NCBI RefSeq assembly: GCF_037042905.1
Contig: NC_087245.1
Coordinates: 7,566,001-7,630,000, forward strand
Direction of reading: 5' to 3'
DNA length: 64,000 bases
From: Lytechinus pictus
Taxonomy: Eukaryota
Made by a program: the position numbers and the translations under genes. Below the pieces are notes generated by a model that searched no databases, had not been told where the DNA came from, and saw only the letters and a list, made by a program, of their open reading frames with translations. The first letter of the stretch is position 1; each line of letters begins with the position of its first letter. This document shows, in pieces, positions 6,355-47,968 of this stretch.

Positions 6355-6393
6355 ATGGCACAATCAACATTCACAGATAGAACATTTCCAAAG
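6355..6393 (+). CDS. ADA: ADA exon 1 (MAQSTFTDRTFPK)
   Basis: ATG...CCA AAG|gtaggt; resembles the vertebrate ADA N-terminus (MAQ...PK); phase 0 matches exon 2. Confidence 0.85.
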
Positions 6394-9300
6394 GTAGGTT
6401 AGCCTATACATTATATCGTGACTTGCGTTGAATATTATCCATCCTGCTTGGAGTCCGTCAGGGTATACTCCGTTCAGGGACCTTCAAGGTTTCGCAACCT
6501 TTAGCCCATAGACACGGAATCTTTTCTCACTCAACTTCGCGTTCTCCTTTTATAAGATTGGCTTTCCAAAGAATAAGCGAGCAAATCAATGAAGCGCTTT
6601 GCGCCCGCTTTGCGGTATGCGGTTCATCTGGCTAATCATTTTTTTTTTCGGAAGGGGGGGGGGGCAAGATTTGTCCCAACTGAAGAGCAAAAGTAGCTAC
6701 CATTAGAAATAATAATTGTATTATTATTATTATTATTATCATCATTATTATTTATTGTTATTATTATTATTATCATCATTATCATTATTTTTTTTACTAT
6801 TATTAGTATTACTAATAATATGCTAACACGTTGCAGCTACTATACTCAAGACACCCGCCACCAATATGAACTTTAAAACTCACAAATCTCTTGCTTAGTG
6901 ATGAATTCTCATCAAACCTATGCACCAATATTCTGGGTTTTTTTTTCTTTTAATTATTAAAACCCATTTATCTAGTGGTTTGAAATTATTATTCAGTGAA
7001 TGCTTAAAGTGTTCTCTGTCGAACAGACAGTGGTGTCAAACTATAACAACATTTATGTTGGCAAATAAAAAAGTCACTTGGACAGTTGTAGTGGCAGATA
7101 ACCGCGTCTGAAGTACAGTACAACTGTTTACTCCTCCTATTCAACGTTGCCATATCTCTATCATACCTCGTTCATGTCGTTATTATAATCACTTGCTGAA
7201 TAACGTTCTTCTTCATGCATGGACCATGGATGCATGGACAATGTCACCATGCATTCAACATGACTTTCACTCAAGACATGTTGATCTTAATATCAAATAT
7301 CACGATTTTTTCAACCTTTTTATTTATTCATAATTATTTTTTAAATCAACGTGACTCTTTCAAAACTAGTTCTCAACTAGAGCCGCTTTAAAAGGATTGT
7401 TATCTGTTGCTAAATGACACGTTATTAGCAATCATTATCACAATGGTTATTTCCTGGTTTAGAAGGTTTAAAGTGTACTGCAATCATTCTGTGTTAAATC
7501 TGGGAGGACATAAATGTATTCTAAGGTGGTAGCGATACTATGATGCTAATTATTGCTATCAAAGGGTCAATTTTTTTCGAAATCAGTAAGCCCAACGTTA
7601 TCATACACTTATAAATTGGTTAAACGCACATGATGCAGTTATGTGAGTCAGGGAGTTGAGAGGAAACTCAATGGCCCTTATTCTGAAGTCAGGTTTAACT
7701 TAGAACAGCTAACTCTGTGCTAAAATTATAGGGAGCCAGAATTTCAAGAATTATGTTTATAATGTATATTTTTTATGTTTACTATTTAATGTCCTTTTGC
7801 TTTCACAATGAAGAAAAATACTTCAGTTATAATTCCCAGACAATTATGAACAATTTTGCTGTCACATGAGTTAGTTATTTGAATGACACTGTAAGGGATT
7901 TGTGCTCCAATTGACTCTCCATATTTAAACCACAACTTTAAACCCAAGTTCAGAATAAGGGCCCATGTGTGAATAATCTTTGATATCTCCGAACTATCGT
8001 ACTGGCGGGGTCACCAATGTGGCGCGGTACCACTCACCGCCCCCCCCCCCACACACACCTTTGCATTTACTATTCCCGTTCATGCCCCTGCCCTTATCCT
8101 AAATCCACCTCTGCTTATGGGGAGTGAGTGTTCTAAAGGCATGTTCACTACCATTTCCTAAGACAATGACTGAGGGAAAATGTAAACCGAAAACAAAGAC
8201 TGGTGAAGATCTTAATTGAGTGCCTCAGAGTTTATCCATCAAGATTTCCTGCATCGTTGTTTGTCTAGTCACATCTATCTTTCTATTCACCTTTAACGGT
8301 TGATTCTCTGTAAATATAGGAAGGTGCGCTCTTTGGGCGAAGGGTGGATTGAGCAATAGGGAAAATAGACTAAAGTTCACATTTCACTTATTCATGTATT
8401 CTTCTTTTTATGACAGAGAGAAACTCAGAGATCAAAGGGGGGGGGACGGTCCCCTTTATTTTGCCTCAAAATATGATACGGGTTTAAGAGCAAAGGTGAA
8501 AGCGAGGGCACGCTGAATAATTTGAAAGGATTTTTTTGCGATGCGACTCCCTATTTATGAGAGTATAAAGAGTTAAGGTAACCGTATATTGTTTGGTTGA
8601 ATATCGACATATCAGAGAGGATAAAGAGGTGGAGCATATTAACCGTTATGACTGTAGGAAAGAACGAGTGTTAGGGTTAGATAAACTTCGAATAAGCAAT
8701 GAATGTTTGGGCCTATCTTCTATGGTTTCCTATACACTCTTAAAATGTTGGGAAACATACTGTTAAAACAATAATTTGTTAAAATTTTATCAAATTCTGG
8801 TGGGTGTTTCATAAGGCTGTTCGTAAGATAAGAACGACTTAAAGAACGACTGGTGATCTTTTCTTTTGGTAAATGGTATACACCATAGGCGATGGTTTAG
8901 CTCGTAAGAAATGATCACCAGTCGTTCTTAAAGTCGCTCTTAACTTACGAACAGCTTTTTGAAACGGCCCCTGGGTAGTTTTAAACCAATAATATATACC
9001 CAGAGTTGGATAAATAAAAAAATTAACCAATTGTTGTGTGGACAGTATGTTGCCCAAAATTTTAAGAGTGTAGACCTAAAGAATCGATTATTGCAATTAA
9101 ACCATCAGAGTTCCAAGGAGACGGTTTTACAATTTGTGAGAGACACAATGAGGATTGATGCCTTGCCAAAGGATGCTTTTTGTCGATTTGATCTTGAACC
9201 TGGCTCGAAACCACTTACAATGTCAGATGAGCTGTTCCAATCCCATTTTTTCAAATCAATGTGGACATACATTATTTTTATGCCATTTAACATTTCATGA

Positions 9301-12002
9301 CTTTGGCAGGCCTTACCAAGGCATAATTCAATGTAATCTTAAGATATGAATTATCTGAATAATATAATATGTTAATTCCGCATTGTGAATTGTCGAGTTT
9401 ATTTTTTTGTGCACTTGCGTTTTCGTGTGTTTTCAAGAGAGATTATTCCCACTTCCTGGATATCATATTTTTAAAGGCAAGCAAGAGAAACATGTTATTT
9501 CCGAGCCAGATCATTGGGATGTCATGTGACTTGAAAACTTTCATGTTTTACCTTTGATCTGTGTAGCCAGTCGTACATGTTTCCTTGTTCATTTTTATGA
9601 TGTTGAATTTTTATTTTTTATTATCTATTTATTAATATTTCACCATGGTAACTCATTCAACAATAGTTGATCTTCCATGAGGCCCTGGATAACTATATAC
9701 AATTAAAAACAATGATGATAATACATATATACAATCATCAAGTCATAAGATATTGTTAAATACATATAAAGTAACAACAGCATTATATCAATTAATACAT
9801 ACAAAATGAATAGATCAGTATAGAAAAACAATTTCTGAAAGGGGATTGTTATGTTGATCGGCCTAGACAAGATTGAGGAAATGTCTTTTTACAGTTTGAA
9901 ATTATTTAGGTTGTAACATTCTTAATACTATGGGGAGACTATTCCATAGAACGCAGCCATCATAACATAAGCACTTTTATAATAATCTGTGTGAAATTTA
10001 ACTCAAACTAAATCATGATGAGCACTTTGTCGAGTATTTACATTATAAACTTTAGACATTTTTTTGAAAACATTTTTGAAACAATCTGCTGAAAAGTCAT
10101 TAAGACATTTATAAAAAAATATATATACACAATATACACCTTAAATATTCTACTCTTTTCTTAAAAGGCATCCATCTGACGAGAAAAAAAAATATTAGAG
10201 GGGGTGTATATATTACAGTTCAAAATAAGCCTTGCTGCCCTCTTTTGCAATTTAGTCAACTTATCAATTTGACCTAAATACAAATTCCCCAAATTTCACA
10301 ACGGTAATCCGTTTGTGTTTGAATAAAACTTCATTGATGATTCATCAACTTTTGATGTGACTCTTATATGATCATGACAAGTCATTCAAATACTTTTCTA
10401 CATACACTGTAAAAAATAATATTGGGCATTTTTTTTTACCACCACGAGGGTAATTACCGGGGGTAATTATGTGGACAACCAATTTTGGGCAGTATTTTAC
10501 CTAATGCGGGAAGCATATTGTCCAGTAAGGTTAAAAAAATAAGCAGCAATTACTTTAGAATGGGAAAAATGTTCACCACACTGGATAAATAAAAATACCC
10601 AAAGAAATGCCCAATGATGGGCATTTAAAACTATTACACTTTTCAATAGCAATACTTTCATACTTTATAGAAATGAAAATATCTTTTAATACGCTAAGTC
10701 TTTTCTTACTGCCAATGATCATATATTTAGTTTTATCAACACTTAAACACAGCTTATTTTACCTATCCACATAGCGATATCATCAAAGTCATTCTGAAGT
10801 TTTTCTTGAATTTCATAAATAGATGTAGCACTTACGTAGAGGGTATTATCATCAGCGTACACGAACGTAGCTATGGAAGAATGATCTTACATTGTCGATA
10901 TTAAAGGAGAATGAAACCCTTGAAACCAGCTGAATCCATATCAAAGAGAAAAATCAAAGAAACATATTGTTGAAAGTTTGAGGAAGATTGAATGAATAAT
11001 AAGAAAGTTATGAGCATTCGAATATTGAGATCACTAGTGCCATGTAGATCCTCCCAACGGCAATGCGACCAAGATCTGTGATATCACACACGTACAACTC
11101 CCTCATTACTTTAGTACTTATTTCACTTATATTCTCACTTTTATAGAGTCTATCACAAGGTGAGGTGTTCTCTTTATGAGATGACAAGTACAGAGGTTTC
11201 ACAACATTATATCATTGATGAATCGTTTGTCATATGATTAGAATGAGCAAAAAGAGATGTTTTGGGGTATATTTTCAGTGTCCAAATGGGAGAGTTGTAC
11301 GTGTGTGACATCACAGATCTTGGTCGCATTGCCAATGGGAGGATCTCCATAGCATTAGTGATCTCGACATTCAAATGCTCATAACTCTTTTATTGCTAGT
11401 CCTATTTTTCTCAAAGTTTTGTTGATCTTATTCTTTGATTTTTCTGCTTTCACAAAAGCTAACTTGCTCCAAGAGTTTCATTCTCCTTTAATTACCATAG
11501 GTTAAGAGTATATAATTTACGTGAATTTCGCACCCCCCCCCCCCAGCCGCCATTCCTCCACACAATCTATTATTTCAAAATATATTATATATATATATAT
11601 ATATTGTAAAGAAATGGATGAAGAGAACAATGGTAGGCGTAGCTTAAATCAAGGTTCCCCAGAGCTATCTACCCTTTGGAAAAATTGGTGATGCCGAAAA
11701 AATGTCTCTGCCGGGAATCGAACCCGGGCCCCCAGCTTTGAACGCCGGTGCCTTAACCACTAGACCACAGAGACGGGTTAGTGGCTAGGGCGACCCCGAT
11801 CCGATTGACCGTCAGATAGACAGATTTTCGACACTATACCAATTATAATTTCCTTTGTCGGGTGAAGGTGGGTTTCGAACAATGACAAGCCGCCATGCTT
11901 CAGCTGGATCAAAGCTATTGCTTTGATACAGTACACGTAAGGGAGAACGTATACAAATGTGTAAAGTTATACATGTACAACAGCTTTGGCAACTCTTTTA
12001 TT

Positions 12003-12037
<35 letters not shown>

Positions 12038-15000
12038 ACAAACAACGATCAAGCCAGTCGGTTGCTAACATTATTCATTCATTGGTCCAATATTGTTGCC
12101 GTCTGAATTCACAATTTTTCATATTTTGATTGAGCGTAACAAGTGAAATAAAAATGCACTTTTGACTGACTATCGACATACATCTAATTCATTTCTTGAA
12201 GAAATGCACCAATTACCTGTTAGAATTACAAATGCGTATAACGTTTGTCACTAAATTTGCTGATTTCGTTTGCTTACCGAAATCATTATACGAGCTATAA
12301 CAAAATTTAATACCTCCTTGATTCATATAACAAAATGCTATCACTATCCAACCGAGAAGCCAGGATTTGATTTTTGAGGGGACGGTAAGTGTACGCGAAG
12401 CGTGCCAACACTTACAGCTCCCTAGGGGGGGGGGGGGGTGCAGGGAGGGTTTTTGGATATCTCATCAAATTTAAATCAAAAGAAGACGTCTCTTGCGTCT
12501 CTATTACCCTTATCAACTGGAATTGAACTGACTTAATGTGATTAAAAAATCTTGTTTTCGAAAGAAATAATGAGCGCTCCAAAATGGGAAAAGATTGAGG
12601 AATTTGAAATAATTTTTCTTACCGCGCAAAGCGCGGACACTAAAACGTTGATAAAAATTGAGAACAGAAGTGGTATACAATGTTTACCTTGGTCACATCA
12701 GATTTGTTTGCAAAAACTTTAGCCACATCAAATTCTTTACCTCGCAAAACAGAGTAGAAGACGGGTAGGCCTATATGCAGGGAGAAAATATTCCTTTCCG
12801 CGAATGACGTTGAAGCTCTGAATTTTCGAATTTTTTCTGAAACCTTAACCTACTCTAATTTTGATATTTCTTAGATCATAATAACTCTGCTACGAAAAAA
12901 GTTCAAGAGTTCAATTTGTGAAAGGAATGATGCTAGAAGAGGAACTTTTCCATTCCTATGCACGCGAACAGTAACCTCTGTGTTTTATTTTGTAAGAAAA
13001 AAATTGTGTAATTTCGCTCAATATTAAGCGCTTCCCTTTGTATGATTTAGATAATTTCAGTGACATTCAAAATTTCAAATTAATGGTGCATAACGAAACG
13101 GGAGGTGGATATGCAGCAATATAGAATAAACTAAAGTTTCATCGTAAATACTTTTTCATATAGCACGGGAATGCCTCCCCCTTTGAGCAGATACTTTGCA
13201 AAAAATTACTTGCTGAAAAGAGGAAGATATAGCGTTGGGGACTCGGAGAGTGACGGTGTTTACCCGCTCCGAAAAGAAGAGCCGAAATTTTGTGTCAATG
13301 CGATTTAAAAAAATATTTTCATATTCTTTTCACTTTATAATATCTGGCAAGAATATACGATTCCTATGACCGGGAGGGGAAAAACGTGTGGGAAAGGCAT
13401 TTTAGATATTTTTTCCCGCGCGGAGTGCGGAAGCAAAATTTTGTATGAAGAGAGAAAAGAACGCCTCGTTAAGGTTTTTATTCTTTTGACAAAAAGAAAA
13501 AGAAAAAAACAATAAAGCTATACCCATCTCCTCCTTTCACTCTTCGCTTTGTTCTTTTTCTCCTTTTCCCTTTCTTTTTTTCTTTTGGGGGGCAGTTTTT
13601 TTTTGGGGGAGGCGACTTCCCCCCACCGCCCCCTGGCTACGCGCCTGTCTCTATCATGCACAACCCATATCTGAAGAACAGGTTGCGGAATATTATTGAC
13701 GGTAAAGTTCGAATTTTATTCGTGATTTCTTCAAATCAAATGGAACTCGCATTTGGCCGAAGTTAACTTTGCAAAAGAATATTTAAAATGTGGAATTTAT
13801 GGTCTCAAGATGTCTTGAATAGAAAACATTATTCTCTTTAATCAGCTCGTTTCAATTCAATTTCGTAGTAATATGCTTATCATATAGAATGAAAAATGAA
13901 TTAGATTTTCGTTGACCAAATCAATATGTTTTTTTCAACTTCAGGTAGAACTTCATCTTCATCTTGATGGTGGAATTCGGCCAGCCACAATCTGGGAGAT
14001 TTCAAAGTAAGTATTTATTCATGACACAGAATCATTTAATTATTTCCTTTTAAACCTCAGGTAAAACTTCATCTTCACATTGAAGGAGCCATTTGATCTT
14101 CAACAATATGGGAGATTTCACAGTAAGTATTCCCGCAAATAAGTTATCAAACTGTCTTAAAATGCCGTTTGCTTACTTCTCTTTTATAGCGTGCACACAT
14201 TTTGCGTGCATCATAATTAAATGTTTTATATCATAGAATGCATTAGCAAAAAATAATAACTCTAGATTTATAAAGTTATACCTTACTTATCTTCAAATTT
14301 AAAAACTACATATACATATTTCATTCTGCTCACTGGCAGTCACGAATCTAGGTGTAAAAAATAGTTGGCTATACGCCCCCTCTTTTATGTTTTGGTTTGT
14401 TTGTTTTGCTTATAAAAAAAACTGTACGGCGAATGGACCCGTGAGTCATTTGCGAATCACATAATTTTCTAAGTGCCCCTGTAATCATGTTAGGTATGCC
14501 CCCCCCCCCTATTGCTAATGTTAATAATGATAATAGTTACCCAGGGATGCCACTTTAGTTCCGAAAACTTCTCACAGTGGGTCCTGCTATTACGTTCTTT
14601 ATCAAATAATTTCATCCGTGTTAATGGCTATACCTATTCCATTCTCTCTACCAATAGCTTTTGTTCTCTTTCAACGGCAGTCTGTCTATCCTGTGGAATC
14701 AAACTTGGAAGCAAAGAATTGAACTCAGTGACGTAACGAATCAAAACTTTTGAGGGGGCCAGATGAGGCGGATGGAGCAAAAGTTTAATAAAGAAGCGAG
14801 CGAGCAACAAATTGCCGTTTTAATACAAAAAATACAAAAATACATTTTTTGATAGCTTTTGTCATAATATTCAGAAAATGATATCATATTTCACACTTTC
14901 CTTTTCTTTTCTTTTCCCTTTTTTTTTTGGGGGGCGTAAAATTTTTTGTGGTCATAGTCCCGCAATCTTCAGGGTTCAAATTTTTTCCATAAGTAATACC

Positions 15001-22136: not shown

Positions 22137-25100
22137 TTGATTGATTGATTGATTGATTTTATTTGGCAAGTCACCATAACATATATACAGTAGCATTAAA
22201 ACAACAGGCTTGCACAGGATGACCCACGAAAGCTCGAAAGCTTATTTCCAGTGGGGTCCTCAATATACAGAATTAAGATAATAAAATGTTAAAATTATAC
22301 TATTTACATATTAAAAATGAAGAAAAAAATCAGAATTTACTATTACCAATAAATAAGATATATAGACAATAAATAAGATATATACAAGAATATAACGAAG
22401 AAGAAGAAGAAAAGAAGGAGAAGGAAGAGGAGGAACAGAAGAAGAGAGGGGACGAGGAGTAGAAGGAGACGGAAGAAACTGATAACGAAGGGAAATAAAT
22501 AAGGAGAAGAACAACAGCATAAACGTGACGACAATAACAACAAGAAGAGGAGAATAGGAAGAAATACAAGAAATAGAAAGAATAGAAGAAAGGACATATC
22601 GAAGCTTCAATCAAACTATGTAAAATACATAATAATACCTAGTAGAGAAGAGAAAAGAACTAGGTCAGTATTCAGGCTAAATCAACCGTACAACATATCA
22701 TTTGCATCTTCTTTTTGACTCTCAAGTGAAAGATATTCTTTCAATTTCCTCTTAAAATGCAAAAAGTTTCCTATTTCCTTTATATCATTGGGAAGGGAAT
22801 TCCAATGTTTTATAGCATTGTAATAAAATGAGTTACCAATACTACCTACCCTTTCTGGTAAGCAAAAATTGAAATGGCTGTTTCTTGTATTATAGTTATG
22901 TATTTCGGTAACTAGATTAAAGTTTGATCCAATGTAATGATTCGATCTATTGTGATAGATTTTATGCACGTGGTGCAAAATAAGCTGTTTTGATCTTTTG
23001 TTGACTTCAAGAAAACCTGCTCCAGAGAGTTCGGTGTAGCCAACATGGGTTCTGGGACCAGAACAGCTAATGAATCTAACCATTTTATTCTGTATAATTT
23101 TCAACTTCTTTTTATCGAGTTCGCTTATGCCACTAAACCAAGCAGGGTTGGCATAGTCAAATAAACTCTGAATAAGAGCAAAACAGAGAATACGCCTTGC
23201 TTTTTGATCCATACAACTTTGATACCTGTACAAAAATTTCAAACGGGCATTCGCCCTTTTTACGATTGATTCTACTAAAGATGAAAATGAAAGGGAGCTA
23301 GTCAACTCAATGCCTAAATACTTTACAGATTCTTTCCTATGAATTATCTTATTATTGTATGATACTTCAAATTCAAATGAAGTTTTATGATTACTTTTAG
23401 AACAAAACAGAATGCTTTCGGTTTTGCCTAAGTGTAACGATAATCTATTATCAGTCATCCAATCGACACATGTAGACAGCTGTTCGCTAAGTTTTTCCTC
23501 AACAAATTTTGGGTTGGCATTTGAACAAAGTAGTACGCTATCATCTGCATACAATAATAATTTACAGTCAGCTTTTAAACAAATAGACATTTCATTGATA
23601 TAAGTTGAAAATAGGATTGGGCCTAAAATACTTCCCTGTGGAACTCCACACGTTATAGGCATAATTTTGGAACAAATATCGCGAATAGCCACTACTTGAT
23701 GTCGATTCGACAAGTAGGATTTGAACCATGCTACAGTAGCCTGGTTAAAACCCATTATTTGTAATTTTTTCAATAAGATGCCGTGATTAACTGTATCAAA
23801 TGCTTTTTGAAGATCTAGGAGTACCATCCCAACGAATTGTCCCTTAGACATATTTGTTCTCAGATAATCAGTCAAGTGAATAAGGCATGTCTCAGTCGAA
23901 TAGTCATGTCGAAAACCTGACTGATATTCGTAAATCATATCATTTTCTTTAAAATATTTTTCGATCTGAACACATACCGCCTTTTCTAGAATTTTGGATA
24001 CTATGCTTAAAACACTGATAGGTCTATAGTTTTCAACAGCAGTTTTATCTTTCTTCTTATGAATAGGAGTTACTTTTGCAATTTTCATATCCTCTGGGAA
24101 AGTGCTAGTAAAGATAGATAGATTTATTAAGAAATTTAATGGTTTGTACAAACTCTTTGCTCCTTCTTTTAGAAATTTAGCAGGTATCAAATCTAACCCA
24201 GTGCTTTTTGATACATTTAATTTACGCAACTCATTAAAAATGAATTGATCACTAACAGGTAATAATTCAAATTTATCTTGGCTTATACCCTTTTTTTCAT
24301 AAAATTTACGAATGTTTTCACTGTCTGCACTGAAAATGTCTTTGCAAGATGGAAGTTTATCTACCAACGTAGCTGCGACATTTGTAAAATAGGAATTGAA
24401 TTCATTGGAAATAGTTATCTTATCATGACATAATTCTCCGTCAATTGAAACGACTAATTCTTGGTCCTTTCCATTTTTCTTTTTTAATCCCAAACTTTTT
24501 AGATTCTGCCAAAGTCTTTTAGAATCATTTTTATTTTCTTCTATTTTATTTTGTAGGTATTCTAATTTGGCCTTTTTCACCTCTCTTTGAACCATATTTC
24601 TTAATTTCTTGTATCTTTTGGAAAGCGTGTCATAATCCTGATCGCTTAGATTTTTCTTCATTTTTTTATACGCCACATTTCTTTCTCGAATAAGAGAAAT
24701 AATATCTTTAGTCATCCAGTTTTCTGATCTCTGTTTAATTCTAATCCGTTTTTGAGGCGCTATCATATTCAACGTTGAAATAAAAGTATTTTGAAAAACT
24801 GACCAAGCCTTATTTACGTCAGTGCATTGGGTTAAATCTGACCAATCAACGGCAGACAGTTTAAGATTGAAAGATTCTTCGCTATATTTTTTCAACGATC
24901 TGATATCAGTGGTTCTGTGAACACCTATAGCCAGCCTAATTTTCTTTCGTGTACAGAAAGTAAAAGAATGGTCACTTATACCAAGATCAATAACACCACT
25001 TTGACTTATTTTTTGTTCGTTATTACAAATCACATGGTCCAATAAAGAAGAACATGTGTGAGTGACACGGGTTGCATCTTTGATGAGTTGGCTAAATCCA

Positions 25101-25800
25101 TGAAGACTCAATAAGTCAGTATATTTTTTAGCCAGTGGAGATTTCTGAAAAAGACAAACATTCATATCGCCTAAAAGTATAATTTCATCATCTTTCTTTA
25201 ATATATCGAGAATATTTGACATCTTCTCAATAAATTGATTGCTTTTCGGAGGCCTATAAATGACGCCAGCAATAATTGGTTTTGATCTTGGTAGAAGCAA
25301 ATTAATCCACAGTGATTCAGAATCACCTGTACTTAAAACATCTATGATATTGAATGCAATATCATTTCGGACATAAAAACATACACCACCCCCAGAGCCT
25401 GATAATCTATCATTGCGTATTACTTTGTATCCATCTATATTGATTTCTTCATCGTTCACCGAGTTATTTAGCCATGTTTCTGTGAAAGCAATGACTGCAA
25501 GATTCTTTCTCTTAAAAAGAATTCGAAGTTCTGAAATTTTTGGAAGAATAGATCTAACATTTAGATGTACAAAGTGAAGGCCTTTTACAGCAAATATGTT
25601 TTCAAAATCTTGATAAAGTAAACTTGAATCCTTCGAGTTTTTTTGTTGTAAATTTGGCTCTGGAATGTTTTCGGGTACCCGAATTTCTTTCTCACAGTTT
25701 ACAATAGTATTATTGTAGTCGTCAAATAAAGATTCACAGAAAGATGGTAAAAAACAGCCTTTCATTTTCATTGAGTAAGAAAGAGCAATGTGTCTGCTAC
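22137..25800 (-). mobile_element. Young LINE retrotransposon, 5'-truncated (no ORF1 seen), with 3' UTR stem-loop, AATAAA and (ATCA)n tail
   Basis: (TTGA)n then TTTATT at 22137-22163 on +; stem-loop at about 22218-22261; no TSD found; 5' boundary approximate. Confidence 0.88.
22682..25771 (-). CDS. LINE ORF2: AP endonuclease + reverse transcriptase (L2/CR1 group, Crack/Daphne-like), 1029 aa
   Basis: EN motifs NVRS, FTETWL, GGGV, YRPP, GDMN, LDH, SDH; RT motifs QSGFR, LDLQKAFDTV, GVPQGSILGP, YADD, KYLG; no stops. Confidence 0.96.
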   Translation of the reverse strand: MKMKGCFLPSFCESLFDDYNNTIVNCEKEIRVPENIPEPNLQQKNSKDSSLLYQDFENIFAVKGLHFVHLNVRSILPKISELRILFKRKNLAVIAFTETWLNNSVNDEEINIDGYKVIRNDRLSGSGGGVCFYVRNDIAFNIIDVLSTGDSESLWINLLLPRSKPIIAGVIYRPPKSNQFIEKMSNILDILKKDDEIILLGDMNVCLFQKSPLAKKYTDLLSLHGFSQLIKDATRVTHTCSSLLDHVICNNEQKISQSGVIDLGISDHSFTFCTRKKIRLAIGVHRTTDIRSLKKYSEESFNLKLSAVDWSDLTQCTDVNKAWSVFQNTFISTLNMIAPQKRIRIKQRSENWMTKDIISLIRERNVAYKKMKKNLSDQDYDTLSKRYKKLRNMVQREVKKAKLEYLQNKIEENKNDSKRLWQNLKSLGLKKKNGKDQELVVSIDGELCHDKITISNEFNSYFTNVAATLVDKLPSCKDIFSADSENIRKFYEKKGISQDKFELLPVSDQFIFNELRKLNVSKSTGLDLIPAKFLKEGAKSLYKPLNFLINLSIFTSTFPEDMKIAKVTPIHKKKDKTAVENYRPISVLSIVSKILEKAVCVQIEKYFKENDMIYEYQSGFRHDYSTETCLIHLTDYLRTNMSKGQFVGMVLLDLQKAFDTVNHGILLKKLQIMGFNQATVAWFKSYLSNRHQVVAIRDICSKIMPITCGVPQGSILGPILFSTYINEMSICLKADCKLLLYADDSVLLCSNANPKFVEEKLSEQLSTCVDWMTDNRLSLHLGKTESILFCSKSNHKTSFEFEVSYNNKIIHRKESVKYLGIELTSSLSFSSLVESIVKRANARLKFLYRYQSCMDQKARRILCFALIQSLFDYANPAWFSGISELDKKKLKIIQNKMVRFISCSGPRTHVGYTELSGAGFLEVNKRSKQLILHHVHKIYHNRSNHYIGSNFNLVTEIHNYNTRNSHFNFCLPERVGSIGNSFYYNAIKHWNSLPNDIKEIGNFLHFKRKLKEYLSLESQKEDANDMLYG

Positions 25801-26039
25801 ATATTAGGTATATATATTCAATATACAGTTGGAATAGATTTCCATTTTATCCAAAAATACACTTAGAAATTAAAATTGTATTGCATTATTCAGAGTCTGT
25901 TCGCTGACGGTGTCATGTAATAAAAATTATATCTTTCTCATGTTTTTCTGTCTTTATTACAACCAAGTGACAGTCGGGATGGATGATAAATTTCAACGTC
26001 TTTCTCAAAATTCACTGTAAAATGAATTGTACCATGTGA

Positions 26040-26946: not shown

Positions 26947-28280
26947 TGGCTTAGGGGATGGGTGGAGACAGTGACGAGGGATTGGCTTAGGAGAGGAGGT
27001 AGAGGGTGGAGGGATGAAGAGATGAGGTTTGGCTTAGGGGAGGAGGTAGAGGGTGGAGGGATAAAGTGATGAGGTTTGGCTTAGGGCAGGAGGTAGAGGG
27101 TGGAGGGATAAAGTGATGAGGTTTGGCTTAGGGCAGGAGGTAGAGGGTGGAGGGATAAAGTGATGAGGTTTGGCTTAGGGGAGGAGGTAGAGGGTGGGGG
27201 AATAAAGTGATGAGGTTTGGCTTATGGGAGGAGGTAGAGGGTGGAGGGATAAAGTGATGAGGTTTGGCTTAGGGGAGGAGGTAGAGGATGGAGGGATAAA
27301 GTGATGAGGTTTGGCTTAGGGGAGGAGGTAGAGGGTGGAGGGATAAAGTGATGAGGTTAGGCTTAGGGGAGGAGGTAGAGGGTGGAGGGATAAAGTGATG
27401 AGGTTTGGCTTAGGGGAGGAGGTAGAGGGTGGAGGGATAAAGTGATGAGGTTTGGCTTAGGGGAGGAGGTAGAGGATGGAGGGATAAAGTGATGAGGTTT
27501 GGCTTAGGGGAGGAGGTAGAGGGTGGAGGGATAAAGTGATGAGGTTTGGCTTAGGGGAGAGGGTGGAGGGATAAAGTGATGAGGTTTGGCATAGGGGAGG
27601 AGGTAGAGGGTGGAGAGATAAAGTAATGAGGTTAGGCTTAGGGGAGGAGGTAGAGGGTGGAGGGATAAAGTGATGAGGTTTGGCTTAGGGGAGGAGGTAG
27701 AGGGTGGAGGGATAAAGTGATGAGGTTTGGCTTAGGGGAGGAGGTAGAGGGTGGAGGGATAAAGTGATGAGGTTTAGCATAGGGGAGGAGGTAGAGGGTG
27801 GAGAGATAAAGTGATGAGGTTTGGCTTAGGGGAGGAGGTAGAGGGTGGAGGGATAAAGTGATGAGGTTTGGCTTCGGGGAGGAGGTAGAGGGTGGAGGGA
27901 TAAAGAGATGAGGGTTTGGCTTAGGGGAGGAGGTAGAGGGTGGAGAGATAGTGATAAGGGCTTGGCTTAGGGGGAGGAGTTGGATGGTTGAGAGTTAAAA
28001 ACGATGAGGGGTGGCTTATTGGAGGCATGGGGGTGGAAAGCGATGGTGATGGGATGGCTTTGGGAGTATAGTGGGGATGGAGAGATGAAGTGATGAGGGA
28101 GTGGCCTCAGGGATGGTGGGTAGAAAAAAAAGCGAAAAGGCGGTGATTTGGGAGAGAGTGAGTGGGTGGAGAAATGAAGCGATGAATGATTGTCTAAATA
28201 GATATAGAGATGAGCGATGAGGGGTGGCTTCGAGGAGAAGTGGGAGGGTGGGTAAATAGAGCGATGGGGGAGTGGCATAG
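26947..28280 (+). repeat. 47-bp G-rich minisatellite, about 20 clean copies with degenerate flanks
   Basis: Unit GGCTTAGGGGAGGAGGTAGAGGGTGGAGGGATAAAGTGATGAGGTTT; starts at 27031, 27078, etc. Confidence 0.95.
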
Positions 28281-35337: not shown

Positions 35338-38300
35338 TGTCTATGGCTTTTTCGGACCATGTTGGTGCTATGAATTTCCTTTTTTTTACAGTTTAAATGA
35401 ATTTTACGTAAGTTTTAAGTGGTTTCACATGATAAATTAGATATTAAGGAATATTTTGATATCATTCTCTCGACAACAAACACATTTTGAAATTCTTGTT
35501 GTCCTGCCTACCAATACTTAGTGTATGTGAACAAAAAAATAAAACTCATTGAATCTCCTTGAAACCAGTACCATTGGAAAGAGCATAAAAAATACATGTA
35601 AAATAATGCCAAGATCATCACCCAAGGTCAAGGATTAGTGAAATAATGGTACTTTAATGATTACCAAAATGCTCGTTTTTGGTCTCCCTTAACTACACGC
35701 ATCAATGGAGGGTTGTGTGACCGTTAGTGACCAATCTGATGTGAAAATGGTGTTCAATTTGAAAGAATGCAACTTTTTTGTTTTTTTACATATCCTAATG
35801 GAACGAAAAACCTTTGGAAGAATGAAGGATAGAAAATAACATCCAAATATAAAATAGCAAATTTTGATTAATCAATAATTAATTAATCAACCACCAAATC
35901 ATGCATATATTAATGGCAACGGCAGCCATTTTATTTTCTGACATATCGATGGAAAATCATATAAAATCAATAACAAGTCGTTACAGGCTGAAACTTTGCA
36001 TAAATCATCCATTATATAAGTTCTACAATATGACAATTTGTTGTAAATTTTATTTCCTTTTAGAGCTCTATTTCCATTAGTTTGAGAATATTCAAGTCAA
36101 AAAAAGACTTTAAAAAACTAAAAGAAAATAATGAAAGTCGTCAATACATGGCTCAAAGAAGGAAACAGATCTAAAGAAAGGGAAATTGAAATGTTCATGT
36201 CTCAGACTATTAAATAAATGGATCTACTTACAATTCTCATTTATCTGTTGAATACATTGCCCTTTAGTCTTTAAATGTTTCAAGGGATTTTATTATGACA
36301 AGGTGAGATCTTCACAGAGGAAGTCCGCAGCTAGGGCAAACTTTGGCATATCATAGTCTTCAGCATCGTCTTCGTATGTCTCCCCTTCTCCCCAATACGC
36401 TACTTGGTAAGTATCTCCTCTCTTCAGGTCCTCAATCTTTCCGTAGTACAAAGTCCTTTGCTGCGTGTCATTGTCATACCAAATATGGCATATCTCATGT
36501 CCAATCACCCTACCGGTCAATATTTCAGACATTGAATTCACAACCTCTTCTCCAAACTCCTTAAACTCAGTATGAAGGTTGGCCAAGCTACAATCTTTGA
36601 TTTTCCTTTCCAACTTCTTACGATTCACTTGGTTCCTTTTTTGCAGTTTATCATTCATTCGTTTTGCAATTTCTGTCTTGATCTCATGTGTTCTCCTTCT
36701 TCTATTTGTGTTCCGTTTCCTGGCTAGGGTTGTTGCAAGCCCAATAACCTTTCTCTTTTTTTCTCCTTGCAGGTTATCCAGATAGTCAACCACATTATTT
36801 TTGACCGCCTTGATCCGTGCAGACAGAAAACACAATGTGGCATTCGGGGCATGCTCCTTTGCGGCACTGAACATGCCCATTACACTCTCCGCATCTATAT
36901 TATGACAGCGTGCAGATTCAGTTTCTTTTCTAAGTGTTTCAGTTACATTGAGAGTGAAATAACGGGCATACTGGCGTTGGAGAACTTCAACAGTTTTCAA
37001 AAGGCACGCTTTCATCATTGAGTTGAAGAGCTCGGGATCTACTGGTGGCCTTTGCAATGACTTTAACATGGCATCTTCAGCAAGCAAATTTCCAAAGAAA
37101 TCAGTCTTGGTGGTGAGTGTAGCTGAAGGATCCTGTGAAAACTCTTTCAACTGGGCCAGCACCTCCTTCACTACTTCGATCCCATCTATGTGGTTCACGT
37201 CTGACTCGCTGGACTGGTAAAACTTCTGCATCCACGGGCCTGACAGGAGCTTGCCGAGAAGGCCAAGAACGTGAAGTTCCACTTTAGCCACTGGAGTTGA
37301 ATAGTCATGGAGCAGAGCCTTGAGAAGACCACCACATGTTACCGGTGTTTCAGTAAGGAGTTTCATGAAGAAATCTTCATGATGGTGGAGCTGCTCACTG
37401 ATGTGGAACATAACGTGTAGCCTATTTCCCCTGTAACGTGGGAGCAGACCCTTTGGAAGACCGGCGCTCTCTAGTGCACTGACGAAACCTTTGGGATCAC
37501 CGCGGCTATCCTTGTACCTGAATTTGTTAAAACTCAGAATTAACTGGTGGGCGATGCAGTCTGTTCCAAACAACTTCTTCCCAAGATTGCTGGGTTCGTT
37601 AGCCTTGAGAGCAGACCGAGTAGAGCTGGCTATGGTGTCCAAGGGATGAAGATGGCAATTCAATTCGTTGAGATGTTTGCCCCAGTCAAGTTCAATTTGT
37701 CGAATTGTGGCATGGTTGACAGCAGCACGATCTGTTAAAGTATTTGATACGTGATTTATTATTTTTTGGCGTGTTAGAGTGAAGTCTGTGCTGTAAAATT
37801 GACAGTAAACATTACTAAGATGATCTACAGTGTTATTGATGTGCATTGCATAATCTGCTGCCATGCCACCAGGTAACTGGTCAACAGCGAGGATGTAACA
37901 TTTCTCCTGGCTTGTGATGTGAATGCTGTTGATGTGTACACCTTCCTGAGTTGTGGCATCGAAGGCAATAGTGAGATCCTCCTGGTCGACCAGCACTTCG
38001 GAACTAAGGAGATCAGAGACAATGCCGAGCTCTCGTGCCATCAGTTCCACAGTGTTTCTATGAGGAACATCGGGGATGTCAATACCAAATCTCTTCCCAG
38101 TCTTCTTAATCAAGGTGGGGATGCTTGATGTGGGAACATTGTTTACAACATGGTCATAAACGCTCATTCGCATCTCATCACTGTACGTCTTGCCTTCCTT
38201 TTGAAACTGAACCGCTGATCCAACTTCCAATGATTCTTCGGTTATAAGAATATCATTCTCTAATTTCTGAACATTATGTCTCAACTCCTGTAATTTCTTC

Positions 38301-41163
38301 TTCAAGTCATTGCATTCAGACACACTTTGCATTCTTGTTTCTACAATCGCAGACTTTGTCTTTAGGCAAGCCCGCTTGTGTCTCCTTTGGGCATTTTTTG
38401 ATCTCTTTTTGTATTTATTCATTTCCTCTTGTACTTCTAGAGCGACTTGAGCTTTTGCCTCCTTTATTTGCCGGTTCTTTCGGGCAATAGTTTGGTTGAG
38501 TCGCTTGATTTTGTTTATCTGTTGATAATTGACAAGACTTCTTAGGGTCGATACTTTCAACTTATATCTCTCCTTCATTTCGGATTTTGATTGTGTAACA
38601 AATTGTAATCGCTCTTTCAGTTTACGTTTTCTGGGTGTTGCAGGCTGCTTGCGCTTCGAAGAGCGAATGGATGATGGAGAATGTAAAGGTCCAGCTGTTG
38701 AATTTAACAAGAAATAAATACAAGTGTCTTTACAGTCCCAGTATAAAAGTATATGACATGTTTTAACAAAATTAGAAATGTGAAATATAGAATACAGCAT
38801 TTGTAGTATTCATTTTGGTAAATGCTATTTTGAAAGTGTATTTATATACTACAATATTGTGCAAAAATAAAAGTACTAGTAGGTGAATTGATGTCGGTTA
38901 TCAATTAAAGATAAGTGTTTTTGATCATTTTTTATTTTATGTCATTTGTGCATTTTCAATTAAAGTGAAGATGAAAATTACAATTTTAAAATCATATTAT
39001 CATAGCATGGGAAAGAATAATATAATGTGTGTAGTATGTTCATTCTACTTACAATCTGCAGAACCTGAATGTCCAGGTAGGCTCACATCATCGTCTTTCA
39101 CTGGTGTCTGAGCTTCCTCTGTCACATTGTGTGGCTGTTCAGATGATGAGACCATAGGCTCATCATGATGAACTTGTGATTCTGGAAAGATTAATGATTG
39201 TATTAAATGTTAAAGGGAAGGAACTAATCTAATTTTTTTTTCCAAATTACTGGTGGGCATTATCATAAATACAGATATGAGGTTTAGAGGTGAATCATCT
39301 ATTTAATAACTTGTTCATTTTCAAAATATAAATATTTTGTTTGTTTCTTTCATTTTATTTTGTCTTTTGAATTTATGTCTTCTCAACTTTCTCTACTGAA
39401 ATAATTATTTTATTTACCGGTACTCTCTGATGGTTCTGGTAAGTCAGGTAGTGGTGCACACACTTCAGGCATTTGAAGTACAAATGGTTCACAGCAAGTA
39501 GCTTTAAATCTGTTCATGACACTCTCTGATGTACTGTCCGAGTACTTTTTCATCTTTTTCATAAGTGCATTCATTTCAGCTTGGATGTTCTTGCATGAAT
39601 AATGCTCAGTTATGATCCTCATGGCTTTGGCTCGACTCTTATCATTCTCAAGATAGATGCGATGCACATGCCCCTTCTTCAAGTCTTCCGAGTTGCCTGG
39701 TAAATCAGCAAAATTGTTGTTCAGGTACTCACGCCTCTTGCCTGGCTGTTTTGAGAGTGCCCCCAATCGTTCCTTACCAGGTGGAGGCATGATTGACCTA
39801 AAATAAAAAAATAAAAAATAATGGAATTGACTGAATATCAGTTCACAAGTAAAAAAAAAAATAAACCTCTTTCAGTGGCATATGCAGGAATCTTTAAGGG
39901 GGGGGGTTCAAGCTGAATGAAAATGTTGACAACAAAAAAAAATTAAAAAAAGGACTTCACAACCAATTTTAGGTCATCGTTTTCTACCCCAAAAAAAATT
40001 GACAAGCAAAATATTTTTTTTTTGGGGGGGGGTATAAATTTTTTTTTTAAGCCCCCCCCCCCCTGGATATGAAATCAAGTACATGTACACTCCTGTTGCA
40101 ACAGCCCCCGCCCCCCCAAAAAAAAAAAAAAAATTAAGTACTTTTAAAACTTGTCTTAGAGTTAGACTTAACTCAGAGTTAAAATTAATCTCAATTTTGT
40201 CATTTTTGAATTTGATAAGCAGATAATCTAAGAAAAATATAGCCTACCAAGAGAGATTTAAAATTTAGGGATATAAAAAAATTGATAGATATATTTCTAA
40301 ATATAGATCTAGAATATATCAAATTTAGCTTAAAATAAATTTAGCTCGAGAAATTCGGTGAAGAAAAGAAAGTTCAACCGTGTGAACAAGCAGCAGGATT
40401 CATGTTCTCATCAGCGGGCGGCAGCCACTTCAACGCCAGCGCGGGCCCAGGAAAATCGGCCGGGTATCGCTTACACACACACACACCCCCGCTGCACGCG
40501 TCTCGGTCAATCTTGAAATTTAGACTCGGAACACGGTGCAAGTTTCGGAGCGAAAAAATATTGTTTCGGTAAAAAAATCACTTAGATATTTCACACACAG
40601 TTCAATCGATAAATATGCTAACGAGACATATAAATTTCTAAAGGGTACTCACGTTATTTCATCAAAATGCCTGGCCTCGAAATTGTCCTCAAACTTCAGA
40701 CAGTTGTATCTCTGGTTCTGTTCGGCTGACGAAAAAATTTCCACATGTGTTGCGATCGGAATTTCCCCACGATAATATCGATATCCAATTGATGATGTAA
40801 GAGCCAAAAATAACAGTGCTACGGCAATTTGAACGCACCCCTGTCATGCATACAATGGATATCGAGCGAAGCGTACGGCGATACCAAAGCAGTGCGCCGC
40901 TGAGGCTTGGATTGTCACGTACCTACCAGTGAGGCTGAGTTACCCGTGCTAATAAACTGGGACTCCACTCACGCGCATTTGGGCCGCCCTAGCTTAGAAC
41001 TAAGCAATATTATCTAGAAATTGTTACATTGTAGTCATTAAATATGTTCTATTAAATAAATTGATAATGTTTAATCGGTACTCACCGGTTCTTTTGTTGC
41101 ATTTTCAGACCATTTCTCACAATTCTTCGTAAATATTTGCGGCAAATTTTGTCGCCATAGACA
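35338..41163 (-). mobile_element. DNA transposon carrying the transposase; ends unresolved
   Basis: Outer candidate: 10-bp inverted pair TGTCTATGGC (35338-35347) / GCCATAGACA (41154-41163), no TSD. Inner candidate: CTTAGT (about 35517) / ACTAAG (about 41004) flanked by CAATA. Confidence 0.5.
36293..39790 (-). CDS. Spliced DDE transposase, hAT-like (exons 39790-39418, 39181-39053, 38694-36293; 967 aa) with C-terminal Spindlin/Tudor-like domain
   Basis: Two GT-AG phase-1 introns join ORFs 39410..39790 and 36293..38800 in frame. Motifs: IAFDATT (D1), TLTDRAAVN (D2), NCHLH (CxxH), GNRLH, HNIDAESVMG (E); N-terminal coiled-coil/basic region. Confidence 0.85.
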
Positions 41164-42499: not shown

Positions 42500-43410
42500 C
42501 ATGACTTTCTATATTTAATGACAAACTTTTTTAGGGGGGGTGGGGGCTTGCCAAATATAACGCGCGACAAGATGACCTTCTTTTTTTAGTGACAACTTTT
42601 TTTTTATTTGTCAAATTTTACGAGAGACAAAATGACCTTCGATCATTATTAGTTAAACCTTTTTTTTGGGGGGGGGGGTAGGGGGCTCGCCAAATAGTGA
42701 CACACTTTTTTTGTAAAATTTTACGCTAGAAAAAATGATCTTCAATCATTATCAGTTACCTTTCATTTGTTTTTTTTTTAGGGGGGGGGGCTTGTCAAAT
42801 TTTACGTGGGACAAATGACCTTCATTTTTTAGTGATTTTTTTTTATACTAGACAAATTTTAAGAGGAACAAAATGGCCTTCAATCATTTTTAGTTAAAAC
42901 CTTTTTTTTTGGGGGGGGGCTTGCCAAATATTTCACAAACAAAATGAACTTCAATTTTAGTGACCATCTTTTTATTACTTTTAAAATTTCACGCAGGACA
43001 AAATGACCTTCACTTTTTTTTAATGTTATGTTATATCGAGATTTTATACCTGACTGCTAAACAAGCACGAATGCCTGTGAGCAAGCAACCAGGGGACCGA
43101 CGGCTTAAGGTCCTCTCCGAGGGACCTGGTAATGAGGATAAATGCCTTACCAAAGGGCACTAGCGCACCACTTGGGAATCGAACCCGGGTCACCGGAATC
43201 CGAAACCCCCGCTCTACCGACTGAGCTATCGCGCCTCCGATATGTTAACATTGGGGGGGGGGGGGCTTGCCAAATATAACAAAATGACAGTCTTTTATTT
43301 TTAGTAACCATCTTTTTTGTTTTACTTGTCAAATCTTACGCGAGACAAAATGACAATTTTTCTGTGATAACCTTTTTTTGGGGGGTTGTCAAATTTTACT
43401 TGAGAAAATG
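42500..43410 (+). repeat. Degenerate tandem array (GGGGCTTGxCAAAT...GACAAAATGACCTTC) interrupted by a SINE
   Basis: Motifs recur at roughly 50-130 bp spacing. Confidence 0.7.
43022..43239 (-). mobile_element. tRNA-derived SINE (V-domain-like body)
   Basis: Minus strand GGCGCGATAGCTCAGTCGGTAGAGC...GGTTCGATTCCC then GGACCTTAAGCCGTCGGTCCC; (ATAAC)n tail. Confidence 0.8.
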
Positions 43411-47467: not shown

Positions 47468-47968
47468 ATTTATTAATCTAATAAGCCTAATGAGTGCGTG
47501 AAATCTGTTGACAGTGCATGAGGCTTGAAAAACTGGATATTTTATATTTTTTGTAATCATGAACAGCATTCATGGGTTGATACATTTATAGCAAATAATG
47601 CGAGCGCAAATCGCGATCCAAAATTTTTAAATGGGGGGGGGGGAATTCAAGTAGTTTGTTATAGAATATATAGGTACATTGACGTACCGTGGGTCACGGC
47701 ATTGGGGGGGGGGCACCACCACAAATTTGGTGTCACTTAGGGAGCGCGCTCAGTTGCCAGGTATGCTGACCTAATAGAGAAATTTTAAGGACATGCAATG
47801 CCATTGAACGGATAAGTATCTCACTGATTAAATAATGCGAGCGCGAAGCGCGAGCTGAAAATTTTTGATATTCAGACCAAAAAGAGACATTATAAGCAAA
47901 TTGTTTGTAATCGTGATACGTACCTGTCTCGCTAAACAAACAATGCGAGCGCGAAGTGCGAGCTGTAA

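What the first reader, a model, noticed from the sequence alone, without database searches (positions are those of the whole stretch)
11697..11774. Complete tRNA cloverleaf with a TCA anticodon and its own Pol III terminator inside ADA intron 1
Seen: all four stems pair, the anticodon loop is 7 nt (GTTCAAA) with U33 and anticodon TCA, and T6 follows the discriminator directly. The other tRNA-derived SINE heads in the window run on into SINE bodies instead. It has a 4-nt variable loop and 7/5 fold, so it is not tRNA-Sec. D and T arms resemble tRNA-Glu, and G32 is non-standard. It sits in a 400-bp (TA)n-flanked insert, so it may be multicopy. Inference: a mobile element may be spreading an opal-suppressor-like tRNA or a tRNA mimic.
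Basis: partly seen in the sequence, partly recalled or inferred. Interest (0 to 1): 0.7.

Follow-up and report, generated by a model that had tools for sequence, protein, structure and literature searches.

The report
Self-masking tRNA mimic in mobile repeat
The stop-codon-reading "tRNA gene" is real as a sequence, but it is one part of a very abundant 405-base mobile repeat whose own upstream arm is predicted to pair with and hide it, so it is most likely a transposon part derived from a glycine tRNA and not a working stop-codon suppressor.

Summary
Observation confirmed: a 72-nt, 7/5 cloverleaf with UCA anticodon, G32, A73 and T6 lies on the minus strand (11774-11703), antisense in ADA intron 1 (Rfam 60.9 bits). 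It is not tRNA-Sec.

It is one module of a 405-bp unit (11605-12009) set in a TA microsatellite. In an independent DNA run, depth over the unit is thousands of times that of the unique flank. Head-to-tail junctions appear in 3 of 3 DNA runs laid, inverted joints in one: the pattern of non-autonomous Penelope-type elements. UCA is the dominant form, as expected from a recent burst.

The body scores closer to tRNA-Gly than tRNA-Glu, and UCC to UCA is one change. The 5' flank is a decayed antisense copy of the tRNA lacking the anticodon arm. In the predicted fold 41 of 72 tRNA bases are masked, the anticodon hairpin sticks out and the tRNA's 5' end forms the tip. Selection for that rod was tested and not shown. 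RNA-seq shows no tRNA-sized product, but the library could not show one.

The parts
11605..12009 (-). One 405-bp unit of a high-copy repeat that also forms head-to-tail multimers; here a monomer inside a TA microsatellite
   Evidence: depth in run X3 0.32-1.2 million over 11622-11995 against 67-79 at 11534-11577; loose ends behind 12009 read back into the unit's start in X3 (49 contigs), X9 (1) and X15 (1). Junctions.
11703..11774 (-). tRNA-like cloverleaf, 72 nt, 7/5 fold, 4-nt variable loop, UCA anticodon (11741-11739), G32 (11743), A73; intact A and B boxes; probable tRNA-Gly(UCC) derivative
   Evidence: isotype profile scores Gly 15.0, Glu 2.9, Asp 1.7, His -9.7 bits
11697..11702 (-). T6 run directly behind the discriminator (Pol III terminator-like); a second T5 lies at about 11684-11680
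11775..11853 (-). 5' flank that is a decayed antisense copy of the tRNA (D arm, variable loop, T arm, 3' acceptor strand) and of its T6 trailer, with a 19-nt gap opposite the anticodon arm
   Evidence: Strand-neutral alignment; predicted helices, most with pair probability 0.88-1.0 and 0.65-0.7 next to the tip; 41 of 72 tRNA bases pair with this arm; shuffling 11775-11830 costs about 27 kcal/mol
11854..11894 (-). Outer arm predicted to pair weakly with 11636-11674, extending the rod
   Evidence: but shuffling 11861-11895 changes the energy little (z -1.5; 7 of 60 shuffles as good)
11896..12009 (-). A+T-rich 5' part of the unit with short local hairpins (11947-11954/11931-11938; palindrome 11904-11931); carries many of the family's common variants
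11586..11604 (.). Left TA microsatellite flank
12006..12035 (.). Right TA microsatellite flank, (AT)15; its first four bases are also the unit's end
6355..13944 (+). Host context: candidate ADA exon 1 (6355-6393) and intron 1 (6394-13944); the repeat lies antisense to ADA

Best explanation
The cloverleaf is a captured tRNA gene, most likely tRNA-Gly(UCC) with C36 changed to A, that became the core of a short non-autonomous retroelement. SHOWN: the unit is highly repeated, forms head-to-tail multimers and inverted joints, sits in (TA)n, codes for nothing, and carries an antisense copy of its own tRNA upstream. INFERRED: long transcripts of tandem copies (read-through or host Pol II) are copied by a Penelope-like reverse transcriptase and endonuclease that prefers (TA)n. 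The antisense arm arose as an inverted copy joined at the element's 5' end, of the kind Penelope-like elements make, and the enzyme skipped the anticodon hairpin. In the long RNA the cloverleaf is masked in a rod. The intact A and B boxes and T6 may still give a short Pol III RNA, but this is unlikely to be charged or to read UGA. The UCA anticodon is a passenger change amplified with the master copy.
For: Copy number: (X3: 6254 contigs laid on 631 bases; unit depth about 4,000-18,000 times the unique flank; single long contigs have depth 53-96). The tool warns that this is no copy number, so 'thousands' is an inference; 20 of 24 listed runs hold the stretch or part of it. Tandem junctions in 3 of 3 DNA runs; 7 of the 15 joint rows shown are opposite-strand, all in X3. 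Youth: this copy differs from the family majority at only 3 of the 23 variant rows listed in the unit. Craig et al. 2021 (PMC8557442): Naiads prefer (TA)n, form partial tandems and adjacent inverted 5' copies, and lack hammerheads; non-autonomous Chlamys form multicopy head-to-tail insertions. Gly origin: profile score 15.0 against 2.9 bits for Glu, with leave-one-out 52 of 59 correct; G1 in 12 of 13 Gly against 5 of 35 Glu, A38 in 12 of 13 against 1 of 35; a diverged RNA piece reads UCC (6 reads). Non-canonical: G32 in 0 of 60 real tRNAs; best identity 53 of 72. Masking: unit z -7.05 on the tRNA strand; forcing the cloverleaf costs 23 kcal/mol. RNA depth is smooth across the unit, with no start or end pile-up.
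Against: No autonomous partner was found or could be sought (no genome held). The empty site was not seen: my lay stopped at 12010 and the tool skips the TA run. T6 directly behind the tRNA would end Pol III transcription, so the promoter of the 405-nt template is unexplained. All 21 cloverleaf pairs are intact although the sequence is far from any real tRNA compared, and the tRNA plus its 3' flank hold only 2 of 21 variant rows tested (p 0.0014; tRNA alone 1 of 21, p 0.09). That hints at constraint on the cloverleaf, which a pure passenger would not need. The rows are not independent, and only 40 of 110 were shown.
Confidence: 0.6

Rival explanations
1. 'Retrozyme without a ribozyme': the cloverleaf is kept as a processing signal. 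Host RNase P cuts multimeric transcripts at the tRNA's 5' end to give unit-length monomers. Each monomer then folds into the rod, which brings its two ends together at the tip and hides the cloverleaf from further cutting, giving a stable linear or circular template for a Penelope-like enzyme. This is compatible with the best explanation but claims a selected function for both cloverleaf and rod.
For: The rod's tip loop is tRNA bases 1-6, so the RNase P site lies at the tip. Unit size and tandem form match animal retrozymes (150-450 bp, PMC7229834), with no hammerhead core on either strand. Plant retrozyme and viroid circles block their ribozyme by a complementary strand (PMC7229834 Discussion). 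The cloverleaf is fully paired and poor in common variants. Folding is better on the tRNA strand (z -7.05 against -4.47).
Against: No excess of G.U over A.C between the arms in 4 of 4 alignments (7:7, 13:11, 6:9, 13:11). Variants are not significantly milder than random changes (p 0.10, n 13; p 0.20, n 10 for the 5' arm); 4 of the 7 listed variants at paired sites of the rod break their pair. The antisense arm is transcribed first, which would mask the cloverleaf before RNase P could act. An inversion at the tRNA's 5' end gives the same geometry without selection. No read start or end pile-up, though that library is a weak test.
Confidence: 0.17
2. DNA-level element: a foldback, MITE- or Helitron-like repeat, or a satellite monomer, that moves or amplifies as DNA and happens to contain a tRNA gene.
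For: The unit also folds well as single-stranded DNA (z -4.8 and -3.5). The arm mismatches show no RNA-strand bias. TA flanks fit TA-targeting DNA transposons (own knowledge).
Against: The unit's ends are not inverted repeats beyond A+T-rich chance matches with the TA runs. The inverted arms are internal. Head-to-tail multimers with truncated junctions and inversions at many different points fit retrotransposition better.
Confidence: 0.15
3. Working or leaky opal suppressor: some copies are transcribed by Pol III from a start within about 10 nt of the tRNA, matured, charged (probably with glycine) and read UGA.
For: Intact A box, B box, all stems, U33, A37 and T6. UCA is the only form in the contigs spanning the anticodon in X9 and X15. 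With a leader of 9 nt or less the acceptor stem is predicted to form (probability 0.99-1.0). Some Naiads in clams and spiders have in-frame UGA codons (PMC8557442), though read as selenocysteine through SECIS.
Against: G32 in 0 of 60 real tRNAs; U2-A71 where 12 of 13 Gly tRNAs have C2. C36, recalled as a glycyl-tRNA synthetase identity base, is lost. Thousands of active UGA suppressor genes should be harmful (inference). Leaders of 12 nt or more abolish the acceptor stem. A diverged copy reads UCC. tRNA-like repeats with stop anticodons are a known false signal: all predicted Sup-CTA genes in some rust fungi come from Helenus (PMC10886601).
Confidence: 0.05

Closest known systems
Non-autonomous Penelope-like elements (Naiad, Chlamys/MRC1; Craig et al. 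2021, PMC8557442; passages, section 6 and one supplementary file searched)
   Same: (TA)n target, head-to-tail copies, inverted joints, no hammerhead, no ORF
   Different: The passages read describe no tRNA module (the word tRNA occurs once in the main text, about tRNA-Sec). No sea-urchin name was found in the one supplementary file held. Sequence shared with an autonomous partner was not testable here.
Animal non-LTR retrozymes (Cervera and de la Pena 2020, PMC7229834, passages and Discussion; Li, Clavereau and Pollet 2026, bioRxiv 10.64898/2026.07.22.740005, part 1 of 5 and a term search)
   Same: Short non-coding unit of 150-450 bp, monomers to multimers, strongly self-paired RNA predicted, Penelope-like elements as likely mobilisers
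   Different: No hammerhead, which defines retrozymes; a tRNA cloverleaf with Pol III boxes instead. No circular RNA shown.
Helenus / TRIMp3 (Kojima 2024, PMC10886601; abstract and part 1 of 2 of Results)
   Same: Non-autonomous retroelement with an internal tRNA-like sequence that inflates tRNA counts, including false suppressor tRNAs
   Different: Helenus has two LTRs with a primer-binding site and polypurine tract between them and 4-5 bp target duplications. Here units join directly and sit in (TA)n. Echinoderms are not among the six phyla listed.
tRNA-derived SINEs and other tRNA-derived repeats (tRNAscan-SE 2.0 paper, PMC8450103, passages)
   Same: High-scoring tRNA look-alike, high copy number, shared flanks, anticodon that disagrees with the body
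   Different: The tRNA is internal (bases 236-307 of 405), keeps its acceptor stem and is followed by T6 instead of a SINE body and tail
Eukaryotic tRNA-Sec (Santesmasses et al. 2017, PMC5330540, passages)
   Same: UCA anticodon only
   Different: 72 nt against 90-101; 7/5 against 9/4; no variable arm; A73 against G73; thousands of copies against normally one

Membership tests
Eukaryotic tRNA-Sec | UCA anticodon | tested here: met
Eukaryotic tRNA-Sec | 9/4 fold, 90-101 nt, long variable arm (PMC5330540) | tested here: not met
   7/5 fold, 72 nt, 4-nt variable loop
Eukaryotic tRNA-Sec | G73 discriminator | tested here: not met
   A73
Translating tRNA / natural opal suppressor | Complete cloverleaf, A and B boxes, T-run terminator | tested here: met
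Translating tRNA / natural opal suppressor | Pyrimidine at position 32 | tested here: not met
   G32; 0 of 60 comparison tRNAs have G there
Translating tRNA / natural opal suppressor | Few loci, flanks not shared as a repeat unit | tested here: not met
   The whole 405-bp unit is high-copy
Translating tRNA / natural opal suppressor | Mature CCA-added, aminoacylated RNA that reads UGA | not testable with these tools
   The only raw RNA laid was a cDNA RNA-seq library (X22), which would miss a 75-nt tRNA
tRNA-derived SINE | tRNA head at the 5' end running on into a body and tail | tested here: not met
   tRNA internal, T6 directly behind it
Non-autonomous Penelope-like element | Insertion in microsatellite, (TA)n for Naiads | tested here: met
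   for this one copy
Non-autonomous Penelope-like element | Head-to-tail copies and inverted joints | tested here: met
   tandem junction in 3 of 3 DNA runs; opposite-strand joints in X3
Non-autonomous Penelope-like element | End sequence shared with an autonomous RT/GIY-YIG family | not testable with these tools
   No genome held; the only RT found in the window is LINE-type and shares no sequence with the unit
Non-LTR retrozyme | Tandem unit of 150-450 bp | tested here: met
   405 bp with tandem junctions
Non-LTR retrozyme | Type I hammerhead ribozyme in each unit | tested here: not met
   No CUGAN[GA]A core on either strand, junction included (motif recalled); no ribozyme family in Rfam at E up to 1
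Non-LTR retrozyme | Abundant monomer-length circular RNA | not testable with these tools
   Junction reads cannot tell circles from tandem genomic copies
Helenus / TRIMp3 | Two LTRs with primer-binding site and polypurine tract between them; 4-5 bp target duplication | tested here: not met
   Single unit here; units join with no spacer in the tandem junctions; flanks are TA runs
MITE / foldback DNA element | Terminal inverted repeats | tested here: not met
   Only TA-run-driven matches at the ends; the inverted arms are internal

The most novel reading that the evidence does not exclude
A ribozyme-free counterpart of retrozymes: a Penelope-mobilised repeat that uses a tRNA cloverleaf as a host RNase P cutting site to make unit-length RNA, then hides that cloverleaf with its own antisense arm so that the cut ends meet at the tip of a viroid-like rod, with only a UCA anticodon hairpin exposed.
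Probability: 0.17. Interest if true: 0.75.

Novelty: new variant of a known kind. Interest (0 to 1): 0.35.

Why it matters
Most likely it matters as a caution and as a new repeat design: thousands of high-scoring 'UGA-reading tRNA' or 'tRNA-Sec' calls in this genome would be one transposon family. If the cloverleaf proves to be a processing signal, it would show that a Penelope-dependent element can swap its hammerhead ribozyme for a tRNA mimic cut by host enzymes, and give a simple test system for how such elements make their templates. If even a fraction of copies gave a charged UCA tRNA, an animal would carry a natural opal suppressor spread by a transposon; I put that at about 1 in 20.

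Tried and rejected
Whole-genome search and file: none held, so copy number, anticodon census, empty sites and the autonomous partner could not be read from an assembly. Exact tRNA patterns found 0 matches in metagenome, viral and prokaryote collections. The window holds no second copy of the unit. Look-ups of earlier notes by sequence and by nearby place returned nothing. tRNA-Sec rejected on fold, length and A73. Hammerhead rejected. No ORF above 62 codons in a head-to-tail dimer. Selection on the rod: G.U against A.C test negative in 4 of 4 alignments; variant-energy test not significant (21 of the 23 listed rows in the unit were used, two rare rows at 11948 and 11950 left out; 13 fell in the range scored). 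The whole-arm alignment score was only at the edge of the shuffles (88.5 against a maximum of 89.5 in 200; 2 of 4 settings above all shuffles), so only the inner arm is secure. Runs X9 and X15 carry other organism codes, but with 33 and 22 contigs they may hold traces of the same animal's DNA; I did not count them as other species. Three ARAGORN 'SeC(tca)' calls among the metagenome loci appear to belong to an unrelated 73-nt SINE-like family with variable loops and were left out, with all 39 of 101 distinct hits not 72 nt long and 2 poorly paired ones. ENSURE (PMC12807605, passages) gave nothing on this element. Ten literature searches listed no paper describing a tRNA-bearing tandem repeat of this kind in sea urchins. 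Repbase, Dfam and most subscription papers are not covered, so it may be catalogued there.

Full report
1. Observation. The window holds a complete tRNA fold on the minus strand, 11774 to 11703. Rfam's tRNA model scores it 60.9 bits over the full model. All 21 stem pairs form, two of them G.U. The variable loop has 4 nt, the anticodon loop is G32 U33 U34 C35 A36 A37 A38, the discriminator is A, and T6 follows at once. ARAGORN found nothing in 50 of 50 shuffled windows. ADA exons lie on the plus strand, with a candidate exon 1 at 6355-6393 and exon 2 from 13945. The tRNA is therefore in intron 1, antisense to ADA. Earlier notes name the animal as a Lytechinus sea urchin; I did not check that.

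2. It is not tRNA-Sec. Eukaryotic tRNA-Sec is 90-101 nt with a 9/4 fold, a variable arm and G73, and ARAGORN's Sec calls in animals are mostly false (PMC5330540, passages). This sequence shares only the anticodon.

3. It is part of a high-copy 405-bp unit. No genome is held, so I used sequencing runs. 20 of 24 listed runs hold the insert or part of it. I laid 4 of the 24 on 11380-12010. In DNA run X3, from a sample other than the best holder's, summed depth is 0.32-1.2 million over 11622-11995 and 67-79 over the unique flank 11534-11577; single long contigs have depth 53-96. The tool says this is no copy number, and overlapping contigs inflate it, so I infer only 'thousands of copies'. Earlier notes give about two thousand from an assembly (not checked here). 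In 3 of 3 DNA runs the loose ends behind 12009 read straight into the unit's first bases, so units of 11605-12009 form head-to-tail multimers. 7 of the 15 joint rows shown (of 52) are opposite-strand joints at scattered points. The unit ends in ATAT and sits between two TA runs, so no target duplication can be read. This copy differs from the majority at 3 of the 23 variant rows listed in the unit, which suggests a young family.

4. The anticodon among copies. None of the 40 best-supported variant rows (of 110) falls in 11708-11777. The contigs that span the anticodon in X9 (11662-11834, depth 177 of about 180) and X15 (11658-11777) have no difference from the window. So UCA is the dominant form; contigs drop rare variants, and 70 rows were not shown. 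One diverged transcribed piece (6 reads) keeps G32 but reads UCC; two diverged DNA pieces shown keep UCA. The tRNA holds 1 of 21 tested rows (p 0.09), and the tRNA with its 3' flank 2 of 21 (p 0.0014). Linked variants make these p-values too small.

5. Parent tRNA. A pattern from the D and T arms fetched 130 loci, giving 101 distinct matches, 62 of them 72 nt, 60 well paired. Best identity is 53 of 72, tied between a Glu(UUC) and a Gly(UCC) gene. Scoring only the positions outside the pattern and the anticodon gives Gly 15.0, Glu 2.9, Asp 1.7 and His -9.7 bits; leave-one-out classed 52 of 59 correctly. G1 and A38 are Gly-like. G32 occurs in 0 of 60. UCC to UCA is one change, UUC to UCA two. 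The set is small, pattern-selected and not from the host, and the score is below 12 of 13 true Gly scores, so Gly is favoured, not proven.

6. A built-in antisense arm. The unit folds far better than shuffles on the tRNA strand (-142.2 against -102.4 kcal/mol, z -7.05, 0 of 100 shuffles as good) and less so on the other strand (z -4.47). These folds used 11606-12009; one search used the full unit and gave the same energy. The cause is the 5' flank, 11775 to about 11853, a decayed antisense copy of the D arm, T arm, 3' acceptor strand and T6 trailer, with a 19-nt gap opposite the anticodon arm. In the predicted fold 41 of 72 tRNA bases pair with this arm, the anticodon hairpin stays (probability about 1.0), and tRNA bases 1-6 form the tip loop. 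Forcing the cloverleaf costs 23 kcal/mol. In short transcripts the acceptor stem survives a leader of up to 9-10 nt and is lost from 12 nt. These are predictions without modified bases or proteins. Tests for selection on the rod were negative: no excess of G.U over A.C, and variants no milder than random (p 0.10 and 0.20).

7. Expression. About a quarter of RNA run X22 was read. Depth runs smoothly at about 180-490 reads per direction across the unit, with no peak on the tRNA and no place where many molecules begin or end. Both directions are equal, so the strand is unknown. The neighbouring repeat, at similar DNA depth, has higher RNA depth (up to about 1,590 per direction). This fits copies carried in longer transcripts. 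It says nothing about a mature tRNA, which such a library would miss.

8. Mechanism. Shown: high copy number, tandem and inverted junctions, TA context, no coding frame and no hammerhead core, antisense arm. Inferred: mobilisation by a Penelope-like element. Naiads prefer (TA)n, form partial tandems and adjacent inverted 5' copies and lack hammerheads; non-autonomous Chlamys form head-to-tail runs (PMC8557442). An inverted copy joined at the 5' end of a tRNA-headed ancestor, with the enzyme skipping the anticodon hairpin, would give the arm seen here. Unexplained: T6 would stop Pol III after about 80 nt, so the 405-nt template needs another promoter or read-through; and the cloverleaf is better kept than a passenger needs. 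The second point keeps alive the bolder model, in which RNase P cuts multimers at the tRNA's 5' end and the rod then joins and protects the ends, as blocked ribozymes do in plant retrozyme circles (PMC7229834). RNase P's action on tRNA-like folds is recalled, not tested.

9. Comparison. It works most like a non-autonomous Penelope-type repeat or an animal retrozyme. It is not a retrozyme (no hammerhead), not Helenus (no LTR pair, primer site or polypurine tract; PMC10886601), not a standard SINE (tRNA internal and terminated) and not a MITE (no terminal inverted repeats). Membership of the Penelope group lacks the decisive link to an autonomous partner. Repeats that mimic tRNAs with odd anticodons are well known (PMC8450103; PMC10886601). 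Ten searches listed no description of this element; repeat databases and closed supplements were not visible.

10. Earlier notes. The scan met this repeat at least seven times on other pieces of this genome. The Penelope and retrozyme framing and three of the papers came from those notes, so my agreement with them is not independent. I tested copy number, tandem form and inversion from runs. I differ from one note on the parent (Gly rather than Glu). The few lines shown of each note do not mention the antisense arm inside the unit.

11. Verdict. A real sequence feature, and an ordinary kind of false suppressor signal, in a repeat of somewhat unusual design. Best explanation 0.6, processing-signal model 0.17, DNA element 0.15, working suppressor 0.05. 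Interest 0.35.

Noticed in passing
window 10901-11491: A 591-bp repeat about 99% identical to 55369-55959 and 62548-63124 ends about 110 bp left of the unit. It holds an inverted repeat (about 11035-11080 with 11310-11365, seen by eye), and its end is very high-copy in DNA and RNA runs.
   Followed up: partly
window 47322-64000: A tandem duplication with period about 7.18 kb, over 99% identical, each copy holding a 28-bp-based minisatellite and 162/192-bp repeats. It may be a real segmental array or an assembly artefact.
   Followed up: no
window 22685-25846, minus strand: An open 1054-codon LINE-type frame with endonuclease and reverse transcriptase domains, just past the last ADA exon found; apparently a young copy.
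   Followed up: partly
window 36296-38809 and 39413-39871, minus strand: Open frames of 838 and 153 codons with no Pfam match at E 0.001 and only chance-level matches at E up to 1; possibly an unclassified transposon gene.
   Followed up: partly
window 26970-27979: A strongly G-skewed 47-bp minisatellite, 21.6 copies, 93% matches.
   Followed up: no
window 4996, 26093, 28861 (+) and 43186 (-): Four tRNA-derived SINE-like heads; those at 26093 and 28861 share the same body start. ARAGORN calls the one at 43163-43234 tRNA-Arg(tcg) although its stems are broken.
   Followed up: partly
run X22 laid on window 11690 and 11707: About 45-48% of RNA reads carry other letters at 11690 and 11707, against 11% and 0.8% of DNA depth in X3. 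A few diverged copies, or another individual's subfamily, dominate the RNA. The 11707 change keeps the acceptor pair as U.G.
   Followed up: no
run X9 laid on window 11948-11950: X9's main variant here (59% of depth) is at about 0.1% in X3 for two of the three positions, so the DNA in X9 may come from another population or species with its own subfamily but an identical tRNA.
   Followed up: no
L001, L003-L005, L015 and about 30 more loci from two metagenome assemblies: An unrelated 73-nt tRNA-headed SINE-like family with variable anticodon loops, some read by ARAGORN as tca: another case of stop-like anticodons arising in repeats.
   Followed up: no
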